Source: the human T2T-CHM13v2.0 reference genome, Homo sapiens. From it: a DNA stretch of 64,000 nt. Each line of letters starts with the position of its first letter. Positions within the stretch are counted from its first letter, which is position 1. A program made the translations under genes and the position numbers. Where the stretch lies: the NCBI RefSeq assembly GCF_009914755.1, contig NC_060940.1. One strand, given 5' to 3'. Under the pieces are notes generated by a model. It ran no database searches, was not told the origin of the DNA, and saw only the letters and a program-made list of their open reading frames with translations. This document shows, in pieces, positions 50,101 to 53,100 of the stretch.

Positions 50101-53100
50101 CTCCAGCTTGGGTGACAGAGTGAGACTGTCTCAAAAAAAAGGACATGCTGTGTGATCTAATTTACATAATATTCTAGAATATGCAAAGAAGTCTATGGTG
50201 ACAGAAAGCCTCTCACTAGTTTCTGGGGACAGAGGAGAAGCAGGAGGAAGGGACTTTTTTTTTTTTTTTTTTTTTTTTTTTTTTGAGACAGACTCTCGCT
50301 CTGTCGCCCAGGCTGGAGTGCAGTGGCGTGATTTCGGCTCACTGCAAGCTCCGCCTCCCGAGTTCACACCATTCTCCTGCCTCAGCCTCCCAAGCACCTG
50401 GGACTACAGGCACCCACCACCACGCCTGGCTAATTTTTTGTATTCTTAGTAGAGACAGGGTTTCACCATGTAAGCCAGGATGGTCTTGATCTCCTGACCT
50501 CGTGATCCGCCTGCCTCGGCCTCCCAAAGTGCTGGGATTACAGGCGTGAGCCACTACGCCCGGCCGCAGGAAGAGATTATTAAGGATCTGGAAGAGACTT
50601 TTGGGAGTGATGGGTATGTTCATAAGCTTTATCATGGTGATGATCTCATGAGTGTGTACATGGGTCAGAATGTATCAAACTGTACACCTTAACCATGTAC
50701 TAGTGTTCACCGTGTGTCAATTAGACCTCAATAAATCTCACTTTTAAAAAGTAGAACAAACTGATGCTGCCAGAAGTCAGAAGAGTGGTTACTCCTGGTT
50801 AAGGATGGGTATTAACAAGAACAGGAGTACAAAGGGGAGGGTGGGAGCTGAAGATGGTCTGGGTGCTGGTGACATGGGTGTATTGAGGTGGTGGACAGGC
50901 AGGCTGTACACTTACAACTTAGGGACTTTTCCATGCATAGGATCTATTTCAAGCAACAGTTTTTCCAAATAAAGCCAGCTACCAGTGGACTACTCAGATT
51001 TGAACCAGCCACTTAATTCTGCAAGGAGGAGGCAGAGTCAGAGTTCACGGACACCCAAGTCTCAGGTTCAAAAGTCCACGCATGAAGCGGGGTGGGCCTG
51101 CCTGGGGGAGTACAGTGGGTGTGGCCACCTCCCTTACCTTCTGCTGTAGGTATCTCATCCTTCTGTCTCTGTCTCCTGGACACTCGGGGCTGGCTGGCTG
51201 TGGTGCAGGCCCTGGTTCTGGCCCTGGGGGTTCCTCTGGCTCAGGCTCTCTCCCGTCTTCCTGACCCCAGAATGACTTCCTGCCAAACAGCCTGTGAGCA
51301 ATTTCCTCAGCATTTTCCAGCCGGAGCCCAAGCTGGGAAGGGAAGCCACAGGCTCAGGGAGGAACAATTCAGTCACAGGGGTGATGATGAGCTGTTAGGC
51401 TGGGGATATGAATGGAGGACCCAGAAGGCTTGAGCACGGCACTCCAGGCTCCCTGGTGCCCACCTGGGCTGAGGTTCGGGGACACAACCTTGGGAAATCC
51501 ACCAATCTCTCTGTATCTACTTGGTAGATGCCACACGGTAAGAATTCTTGCCAATTCTTTAAGGCTTGGTTCAAATGTCATCACCTGTGGGAAGCCCTCC
51601 CTGAACTCCCATGTCACTCTCTTCCCACCTCCTCTGCCCCACACACAATATACTCAGACTGGAATGTGTGTCTTCCTCGAAAGATCCAGGATGAGGGCAA
51701 GGGCTCGTGTATCAATCACTAGGCACCTGCACGACCTCCCCTGGATGGGGGGGAGGGTTTCAAAATTTGATAGGTGAATAAATGGATCTTTCCTTCTGTC
51801 CCTCCCGTCTTCCATCTGCCCGTCCGCGCACCCCTCTCTTCACCTATCCTTTCATCCTTCCCACGCATCCATCCATCCATCTGCCTCTCCACCTTCCATC
51901 TTTTCTTTCCTTTGTTCTATCCATCCTTATTCCTATCCATCCATCTGCTTTTCCTTTCTTATGGACCCCTCTCCTTCTATCTATTCTTTCTTCCCTTTTT
52001 CCATCCAGACATCTCTGATAGCATTTTCAGAGAAGTCACCAGAGACCAGCCCTTGGCAATGACTGGTGAGTGGATGGATGGATAATAGATGGATGTGTGA
52101 CTCAGAGGATGAAAGATGGATGAGTGGGAAAACAGATGAATAGATAGGTAGGTAGACAGAGATGGATGGGAAATTACAGGGCTGGATGGACACACAGATG
52201 GACAGATGGGAGGGTGGGTATGTCCATGTATGGGTAGGAGGGTGGACAGATGAATAAGTGAATGGATGGATGGGTGGGTGGGTGGTTTGGTAAATGGATT
52301 GAGTGAATAGATGGATGGATGTATGGATGGATGGATGTATGGATGGATGGACGGATAGATGGATGAATGATACATGGGTAGACAGATGATGGGTGGGTAG
52401 ACGAATGAATGATGGCTGGATAGATGATGGGAGGGTGGGCGGATAAATGATGGGTGGGTGGATGAATGGATGATGGGTGGGTGGGTGTGTGGTTTGGTAA
52501 ATGGATTGAGTGAATAGATGGATGGATGGAGGGATGGATGGATGGATGGATGGATGAATGGTACATGGGTAGACAGATGATGGGTGGGTAGATGAATGAA
52601 TGATGGCTGGATAGATGAATGAATGATGGCTGGGTGGGTGTGTGGTTTGGTAAATGGATTGAGTGAATAGATGGATGGATGGATGGATGGATGGATGGAT
52701 GGATGAATGGTACATGGGTAGACAGATGATGGGTGGGTAGATGAATGAATGATGGCTGGATAGATGAATGAATGATGGCTGGATAGATGATGGGAGGGTG
52801 GGTGGATAGATGATGGGTGGGTGGATGAATGGATGATGGATGGGTGGATGGGTGGGTGGGTGGTTAGATGAATGGATGATGGGTGGGTGGGTGGGTGGGT
52901 GGTTGGATGAATGGATGATGGGTGGGTAGGTGGATGGGTGGATGAATGGATGATGGGTGGGTGGTAGGATGAATAGATGATGGGTGGGTGGATGAATGGA
53001 TAATGGGTGGGTGGGTGGATGGATGAATGGATAATGGGTGGGTGGGTGGGTGGTTGGATGAATGGATGATGGGCGGGCGGGTGGGTGGTTGGATGAACGG

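What the first reader, a model, noticed from the sequence alone, without database searches (positions are those of the whole stretch)
51138..51260. Furin-type RDRR site after a Pro/Glu linker, where apolipophorin II/I is cleaved
Seen: between NLLELGLRLEN..LFG and [13 protein letters not shown] the protein has a flexible linker [22 protein letters not shown], then R-D-R-R (51170-51159), and KVTRRRGAR in the next exon. Knowledge: insect apoLp-II/I is cut by furin at an R-x-K/R-R site in this same loop of the LLT module; apoB is not processed this way. Inference: the human protein may mature into two chains like insect lipophorin. Caveat: Met at P1' is unfavourable for furin.
Basis: partly seen in the sequence, partly recalled or inferred. 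Interest (0 to 1): 0.7.

Follow-up and report, generated by a model that had tools for sequence, protein, structure and literature searches.

The report
Monkey-and-ape RDRR, not lipophorin's cut site
The RDRR motif in the unstudied human lipid-carrier gene LOC400499 sits in the same loop where insect lipophorin is cut, but about six residues further along, inside a predicted helix, and most mammals and all the marsupials, birds and reptiles examined lack it, so it is likely a recent lysine-to-arginine change rather than an inherited cut site.

Summary
R-x-[KR]-R at that column: simians 13 of 13 records, other eutherians 8 of 75, marsupials, monotremes and sauropsids 0 of 39, fish/newt/shark 0 of 116. 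It is also out of register. Five insect sites and one shrimp site lie 29-34 residues before the next strand's Lys; RDRR lies 25. AlphaFold puts RDRR in helix 690-707 (pLDDT about 65-69); an insect-type homologue's site lies in coil before its helix. In fish orthologues a canonical motif lies upstream, in the linker (68 of 115; 12.5 expected); amniotes have none there (0 of 127). Best reading: amniotes lack the lipophorin-type site and the human protein is likely uncut there. Main rival: a eutherian R-x-R-[KR]-M-R site at R696 (67 of 88). Untested at the bench.

The parts
51159..51170 (-). R-D-R-R (residues 691-694 of XP_016879420.1; about 726-729 with the signal peptide); first turn of a predicted amphipathic helix
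   Evidence: Arg694 codon AGG is one base from Lys AAG; K in 101 and R in 23 of 127 records
51183..51248 (-). Pro/Glu-rich linker, predicted disordered; the stretch where fish orthologues carry a canonical basic motif and amniotes carry none
   Evidence: coil, with pLDDT<50 over residues 656-667 and 678-688; motif in 68 of 115 fish-set linkers, 0 of 127 amniote linkers
51180..51182 (-). Cys687, vertebrate-specific, 32 residues before K719, i.e. at the register of the insect scissile bond
   Evidence: 125 of 127 amniote records, the other 2 gapped; 53 of 53 vertebrate-type rows; no Cys at 28-36 in 114 non-vertebrate-type homologues
51138..51173 (-). First part of predicted helix 690-707 (D690-K701); conserved hydrophobic face M695, L698 (and V702 in the next exon)
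   Evidence: DSSP helix, pLDDT about 63-69; M695 110, L698 111, V/F702 124 of 127
51147..51170 (-). Alternative candidate convertase motif R691-x-R693-x-M-R696 followed by Y-L (D-L in most eutherians)
   Evidence: R691+R693+R696 in 67 of 88 eutherian records, R696 in 0 of 39 non-eutherian; resembles the listed pro-CNP site
44910..44945 (-). End of helix and basic turn [12 protein letters not shown]; no canonical motif in human; canonical motifs appear here in some cetaceans, deer and one rodent
44859..44909 (-). Beta hairpin 714-730 with vertebrate-specific Cys714 (44909-44907), anchor K719 (44894-44892) and Cys730 (44861-44859)
   Evidence: strands 713-720 and 723-729; each Cys in 53 of 53 vertebrate-type and 0 of 30 invertebrate-type rows
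51138..51332 (-). LOC400499 coding exon in the vitellinogen open beta-sheet domain (PF09172)
   Evidence: weak match for this exon alone (E 0.0067, below the curated cut-off); exons 53521-53645, 44081-44265 and 43024-43206 pass the cut-off (E 1.4e-9, 1.2e-10, 3.3e-7)

Best explanation
RDRR occupies the first turn of a predicted amphipathic helix in the lipid-sheet insert of LOC400499 and likely arose in simians by a Lys-to-Arg change in an older R-S-R-K-M-R, so it is likely not a working descendant of the insect furin site and the human protein would stay one chain at this point. Shown: the sequence, the orthologue counts and the 25-versus-29-34 offset. Predicted: the helix, and the disorder of the linker. 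Inferred: the helix lies on lipid or packs on the sheet through M695/L698/V702 with its basic residues facing out, as the homologous insert helices of apoB do; two of the three vertebrate-specific Cys (687, 714, 730) form a bond that tethers this region; and the lipophorin-type site, which needs an extended coil just before the helix, survives further upstream in many ray-finned fish but is absent from amniotes, where mammals have a Pro/Glu spacer in its place.
For: Conservation: canonical motif at the RDRR column in 13/13 simian, 8/75 other eutherian (caprines, one rabbit record, one hamster), 0/8 marsupial, 0/2 monotreme and 0/29 sauropsid records, and 0/116 fish, newt and shark records. Register, from P1 Arg to the Lys of the K-x-F-G-x-E strand: Locusta 34, Apis 32, Drosophila 31, Manduca 31, Anopheles 30, Penaeus 29 (counted from supplement S1 of PMC1783640). 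31 of 35 motifs in 114 unnamed non-vertebrate-type homologues lie at 28-34; human is 25. MAFFT puts RDRR against residues after the cut in insect-type rows. Two AlphaFold models share the strand at 334-341: the insect-type site (305-308) is low-confidence coil before helix 312-321, whereas human RDRR (312-315) is inside helix 311-328. Context: P1' is S/A/E/D in 32 of 35 homologue motifs. Among 131 listed furin sites, Met at P1' occurs twice and Asp at P3 never (by eye). 30% of shuffles of the loop give such a motif.
Against: The motif is kept in 13 of 13 simian records although its second residue changed (D in catarrhines, A in platyrrhines), and it appears independently in caprines, rabbit and hamster. 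The helix is of moderate confidence and starts only one residue before R691, next to a pLDDT<50 segment, so it could fray. Two homologue motifs lie at 23 and 26, so 25 is off the mode but not outside the range. One listed site (ADAM19) has Met-Lys at P1'-P2'. Furin can cut inside disulfide-closed loops (recalled). No ProP or PiTou score, proteomic data or experiment was available. Records are not independent and several species appear more than once.
Confidence: 0.68

Rival explanations
1. Eutherians gained a new proprotein-convertase site two residues further on: R691 (P6), R693 (P4), R696 (P1), then D-L (Y-L in human and gorilla). The protein would be cut there into about 76 and 285 kDa chains, perhaps held by a disulfide from Cys687.
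For: R693+R696 in 70 of 88 and all three Arg in 67 of 88 eutherian records. The consensus G-[ED]-R-S-R-K-M-R-D-L matches the spacing and the D-L of the pro-CNP site listed as a known furin site; Tyr at P1' also occurs in that list. Signal peptide present. Masses, computed for a cut at RDRR in the macaque record.
Against: All 4 muroid rodent records have Lys at 696, which keeps the charge and loses the site; 4 toothed-whale records lose R693; 0 of 39 non-eutherian records have R696. The bond is two turns inside the predicted helix, between hydrophobic-face residues M695 and L698. It is 23 residues from the anchor, further from the insect register. The whole stretch 687-702 is conserved in eutherians, so these Arg do not stand out.
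Confidence: 0.15
2. One reading: furin cuts after RDRR (R694) and the human protein matures into two chains like insect lipophorin.
For: Canonical pattern, right loop, about the right residue number, flexible linker upstream, kept in 13 of 13 simian records.
Against: Absent from 106 of 114 non-simian amniote records and from 116 of 116 fish-set records. Offset of 4-9 residues into the predicted helix. Asp at P3 and Met at P1' are absent or rare in known sites. Cys687 would sit on the N-terminal piece and Cys714/730 on the C-terminal piece, which would differ from lipophorin if they are bonded (inferred).
Confidence: 0.08
3. The question is moot because little or no full-length protein is made in humans; the loop is a drifting remnant.
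For: RefSeq calls it putative and uncharacterised. 12 papers name the gene; the three read in passages give only expression, association or orthologue-table mentions. Gene models differ in this loop in cats and marmoset.
Against: The frame is open across the 27 exons in the window with canonical splice ends; a signal-peptide exon is present; all 11 Cys in residues 380-940 are highly conserved across vertebrates; full-length orthologue models exist from shark to primates.
Confidence: 0.09

Closest known systems
Insect apolipophorin II/I and crustacean apolipocrustacein (furin-cleaved large lipid transfer proteins)
   Same: Vitellogenin_N and open beta-sheet (DUF1943) domains, and a C-terminal vWD domain in most full-length records. 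Same loop between the same two strands. Invertebrate homologues score 106-235 bits with the vertebrate profile. A review table already pairs Drosophila apoLpp with APOB and LOC400499 (PMC12561791, one passage).
   Different: Their R-x-[KR]-R ends 29-34 residues before the strand Lys, is followed by S, E or G, and lies in coil in the one insect-type model; the human motif ends at 25, in predicted helix, followed by Met. They have a helical hairpin before the site where mammals have a Pro/Glu linker, and they lack the three Cys. No DUF1081 (PF06448) is among the precomputed domains of the LOC400499 records.
[quoted passage not shown]
   Same: Homologous position (alignment; Foldseek E 2.5e-23). 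The apoB insert has three amphipathic helices (PMC11839476, passages). No basic cleavage motif at the insect register in either protein; apoB is not processed here (recalled).
   Different: Distant: 34.8 bits with the same profile. The apoB insert lacks the Pro/Glu linker and the three Cys. apoB was not in the tree, so orthology to apoLp rather than apoB was not tested phylogenetically.
Pro-C-type natriuretic peptide furin site (R at P6, P4, P1; D-L after)
   Same: Same Arg spacing and P1'-P2' as the eutherian R691-R693-R696 motif.
   Different: Unrelated protein; a resemblance of eight residues only; the LOC400499 motif lies in a predicted helix and is lost in muroid rodents.

Membership tests
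[quoted passage not shown] | Vitellogenin_N (PF01347) followed by the open beta-sheet domain (PF09172) | tested here: met
   (exon by exon); precomputed domains of the human record P0012
[quoted passage not shown] | Lipovitellin/apoB/MTP fold | tested here: met
   model pLDDT 83; the 10 matches with E<=0.001 are all lipovitellin, apoB, vitellogenin or MTP
[quoted passage not shown] | Signal peptide for the secretory pathway | tested here: met
   hydrophobic Met-initiated exon near window 93280, matching the macaque N-terminus; judged by sequence, no predictor run
apoLp-II/I-type furin site | Pattern R-x-[KR]-R | tested here: met
apoLp-II/I-type furin site | Located in the loop between the two strands (motifs N19-N20 in the paper's text) | tested here: met
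apoLp-II/I-type furin site | Same register: P1 29-34 residues before the strand Lys, ahead of the helix | tested here: not met
   human 25
apoLp-II/I-type furin site | Conserved across orthologues | tested here: not met
   21 of 127 amniote and 0 of 116 fish-set records
apoLp-II/I-type furin site | Small or acidic P1' residue | tested here: not met
   Met; S/A/E/D in 32 of 35 homologue motifs; S, E or G in the six named species
Furin substrate in general | Core P6-P2' accessible, flanked by flexible regions | tested here: inconclusive
   upstream flank predicted disordered, core and downstream flank predicted helical at pLDDT 63-69; criterion from PMC3281273
Furin substrate in general | Cleavage shown in cells or in vitro; ProP or PiTou score | not testable with these tools
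   no predictor or proteomic resource on hand
apoB/apoLp (APO) subfamily | DUF1081 (PF06448) in the central region | tested here: inconclusive
   not among the precomputed domains of the orthologue records; no separate scan of that region was run
apoB/apoLp (APO) subfamily | Groups with apoLp rather than apoB or vitellogenin in a tree | not tested
   the tree held no apoB or vitellogenin; it shows only that 54 of 54 vertebrate-type rows form one clade (support 0.978)

The most novel reading that the evidence does not exclude
Vertebrates keep a third, unstudied apolipophorin-like lipid carrier whose maturation cut has moved. It is retained in the linker in ray-finned fish, lost in amniotes, and re-created in placental mammals at R-x-R-[KR]-M-R, so human LOC400499 is secreted as a 76 kDa plus 285 kDa two-chain, disulfide-tied lipoprotein scaffold.
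Probability: 0.13. Interest if true: 0.7.

Novelty: new member of a known kind. Interest (0 to 1): 0.3.

Why it matters
If the human protein were cut, it would be a lipophorin-like two-chain apolipoprotein in people, and antibodies or peptide assays would have to target both halves. The evidence says the proposed site is not inherited from lipophorin, which redirects any bench test: include R696 and the three Cys, compare a fish orthologue, and run reducing and non-reducing gels. The gene is the better lead. It is a conserved LLTP of 3,300-3,900 aa, present from shark to human, for which the searches found no functional study (open-licence PMC and bioRxiv only). One small study reports a suggestive intronic HDL-C association (P 3.9e-6, 451 people; PMC10869499, passages).

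Tried and rejected
(1) Exact positional homology of RDRR with the insect site: rejected on register. (2) TRRRGAR as a second conserved site: no canonical motif in human; R704 is Q/R/E and R706 varies; canonical motifs in that turn occur in 17 of 75 other-eutherian records (cetaceans, deer, one rodent) and 0 of 39 non-eutherian records. (3) A specific Cys687-Cys714 disulfide: first assumed, then dropped as unproven when Cys730 proved equally vertebrate-specific; the model is pLDDT<50 at Cys687 and its coordinates could not be measured. (4) A PDB sequence search with one exon found nothing; no solved lipophorin came up. (5) Two pattern-anchored counts of the fish set scored only 39 and 46 of 118 records and were replaced by a profile-anchored count of 116. 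(6) Literature: searches on the gene name, its database aliases (15 of 71 listed, none relevant by title or abstract start) and family terms found no paper on its processing. Smolenaars 2005, the primary paper on insect cleavage, was seen only as a citation. (7) No ProP or PiTou score and no site-scoring matrix were computed. (8) No complex prediction was run: two halves of one chain would be uninformative.

Full report
Observation. The minus-strand exon 51138-51332 reads [17 protein letters not shown], then the Pro/Glu linker, then [19 protein letters not shown] is at 51170-51159, and the next exon opens with [26 protein letters not shown]. The 27 annotated exons in the window join into one open frame with canonical splice ends. 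In the human record XP_016879420.1 (P0012, 3285 aa) RDRR is 691-694. A Met-initiated hydrophobic exon near window position 93280 matches the macaque signal peptide, and a further short exon follows, so full-length numbering is about +35 (726-729). The pattern alone is weak evidence: 30% of shuffles of this Arg-rich loop contain R-x-[KR]-R, and the record has 2 such motifs against 1.5 expected.

What the protein is. Neighbouring exons match Pfam Vitellogenin_N and the vitellinogen open beta-sheet domain. A model of residues 380-940 (pLDDT 83, pTM 0.73) matches lipovitellin, apoB-100, vitellogenin and MTP. The loop aligns with the apoB segment that the LDL structure paper describes as a 75-residue insert of three amphipathic helices between strands 4 and 5 of the first baseplate sheet (PMC11839476, passages). 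With one vertebrate profile, apoB scores 34.8 bits and invertebrate homologues 106-235 bits. A review table lists APOB and LOC400499 as the human counterparts of Drosophila apoLpp (PMC12561791, one passage), so the family link is already recorded. In a tree of 84 of 84 rows (302 columns, loop removed) the 54 vertebrate-type rows form one clade, support 0.978; apoB and vitellogenin were not included.

Conservation. Two searches gave 127 amniote records (all 7 hits, the best 120 of 278). At the RDRR column a canonical R-x-[KR]-R occurs in 13 of 13 simian records (8 RDRR, 5 RARR), 8 of 75 other eutherian (7 RSRR in caprines and a hamster, 1 RPRR in rabbit), 0 of 8 marsupial, 0 of 2 monotreme and 0 of 29 sauropsid; the commonest eutherian state is RSRK (46). 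Position 694 is Lys in 101 and Arg in 23 of 127. The human codon AGG is one transition from AAG (inference). A third search gave the best 120 of 467 hits from a killifish query. I left out 2 bird records already counted, and 116 of the remaining 118 could be anchored: none has a canonical motif at the RDRR position. These are records, not independent species. What is conserved is C-x(6)-[KR]-M-x-[DE]-L-x-x-K-[VF].

Register. PMC1783640 (passages) states that insect apoLp-II/I and crustacean apoCr are cut at an aligned R-X-(R/K)-R. From its supplementary alignment (passages) I counted from the P1 Arg to the Lys or Arg of the K-x-F-G-x-E strand: Locusta 34, Apis 32, Drosophila 31, Manduca 31, Anopheles 30, Penaeus semisulcatus 29, with P1' S, E, S, S, G, S. 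Among 145 new unnamed homologues, 130 could be anchored and 114 lack the vertebrate Cys. 34 of these carry a canonical motif in the loop; 31 of their 35 motifs lie at 28-34 (the others at 19, 23, 26 and 67), and P1' is S, A, E or D in 32. Human R694 to K719 is 25; Cys687 to K719 is 32. An independent MAFFT alignment sets RDRR against the residues that follow the cut in insect-type rows. The two AlphaFold models happen to share numbering at the strand (334-341). In the insect-type P0233 (unnamed; judged insect-type by likeness to the Apis row) the motif at 305-308 is coil with pLDDT<50 and the helix starts at 312. In the human model 308 is Cys687 and RDRR is 312-315, inside helix 311-328. So the loop is the same and the site is not.

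Where the old site may have gone. In the fish set a canonical motif lies upstream of the first Cys, in the linker, in 68 of 115 records against 12.5 expected from shuffles, most often 13 residues before the Cys. Against over-reading this: the commonest form has Lys at P1', which does not occur at P1' in the 131 listed sites (by eye), and only 20 of 116 have a small or acidic P1'. Eel, tarpon and several characiform records have Ser there. In amniotes the linker has no canonical motif (0 of 88 eutherian, 0 of 39 other). That the fish motif descends from the invertebrate site is an inference from a gappy alignment and is untested.

Three cysteines. Cys687, 714 and 730 are each present in 53 of 53 vertebrate-type rows; 714 and 730 are absent from 30 of 30 invertebrate-type rows, and the 687 column is mostly gapped there. 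In a secreted protein two of them likely form a disulfide. Which two, and what the third does, is open. If Cys687 is bonded to either of the others, a cut at 694 or 696 would leave the chains covalently tied. That does not forbid cleavage (recalled), but it would differ from lipophorin.

Sequence context. PiTou's authors describe a P6-P2' core that needs flexible flanks and note that the four-letter pattern is neither necessary nor sufficient (PMC3281273, parts 1 and 3 of 4). In their list of 131 known sites (supplement part 1 of 27, counted by eye) Met at P1' occurs twice and Asp at P3 never. The same list shows a better candidate: pro-CNP is cut at a site with Arg at P6, P4 and P1 followed by D-L, the spacing of the eutherian R691-x-R693-[KR]-M-R696-D-L (67 of 88 records; Y-L in human and gorilla). 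Against it: all 4 muroid records have Lys696, 0 of 39 non-eutherian records have Arg there, 4 whale records lose R693, and the bond lies two turns into the predicted helix.

Mechanism and odds. Most likely (0.68): the segment is an amphipathic helix with a basic outer face, likely lying on lipid as the apoB insert helices do and likely pinned by a disulfide; RDRR is a by-product of a simian Lys-to-Arg change, and the human protein is not matured here. Rivals: a eutherian cut at R696 (0.15), little full-length protein made (0.09), a cut at R694 as first proposed (0.08). A cut would give about 76 and 285 kDa pieces (macaque record), close to the roughly 80 and 240 kDa of insect apoLp-II and apoLp-I (PMC8545670, passages). 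In Drosophila most apoLpp in circulation is cleaved (PMC3406001, passages).

Novelty. The gene is annotated and its family link is in print. Twelve papers name it (search listing); three were read in passages and none deals with processing. Further searches found no study of it, within open-licence PMC and bioRxiv only. The proposed conserved furin site does not hold. The fish-versus-amniote difference, the Cys triad and the R696 motif are small new leads on an unstudied member of a known family. Interest 0.3.

Noticed in passing
window 51182-51180, 44909-44907, 44861-44859: Three vertebrate-specific Cys (687, 714, 730), each in 53 of 53 vertebrate-type rows: an odd number, so one may be free, acylated, or in an inter-chain or long-range bond.
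   Followed up: partly
records P0066, P0067, P0070, P0073-P0075, P0077, P0082, P0095 (cat family): Nine felid gene models read R-Y-R-K and then lack or alter the seven residues M-R-D-L-Q-Q-K (8 gapped, 1 altered), as if a donor 21 bases upstream is used; either a real shortening of the helix or a shared model error.
   Followed up: no
fish orthologues, e.g. P0354-P0357, P0366, P0376: Canonical basic motifs in the linker upstream of the first Cys, 68 of 115 against 12.5 expected; candidates for a retained lipophorin-type cut.
   Followed up: partly
window 51152-51150: Tyr697 in human and gorilla where nearly all other amniote records have Asp or Glu (2 against 111 of 127).
   Followed up: no
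L004:9280 (window position about 93280, outside the window): Signal-peptide-like first coding exon that the human record XP_016879420.1 (isoform X3) lacks.
   Followed up: partly
records P0025, P0030-P0053 and others: The precomputed vWD domain PF00094 is missing from many artiodactyl, horse, elephant and some other records although C8 (PF08742) is listed; a possible lineage change at the C-terminus, or a threshold effect.
   Followed up: no
LOC400499 intron (chr16:11449409 in the paper's assembly; window position not determined): rs56094199, suggestive association with HDL-C in 451 people (P 3.88e-6; PMC10869499); fits a lipid carrier but is below genome-wide significance.
   Followed up: no
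listing: No mouse or rat record among the best 120 hits although Peromyscus, Acomys, hamster and Sigmodon are present; 158 further hits were not shown, so absence is not established.
   Followed up: no
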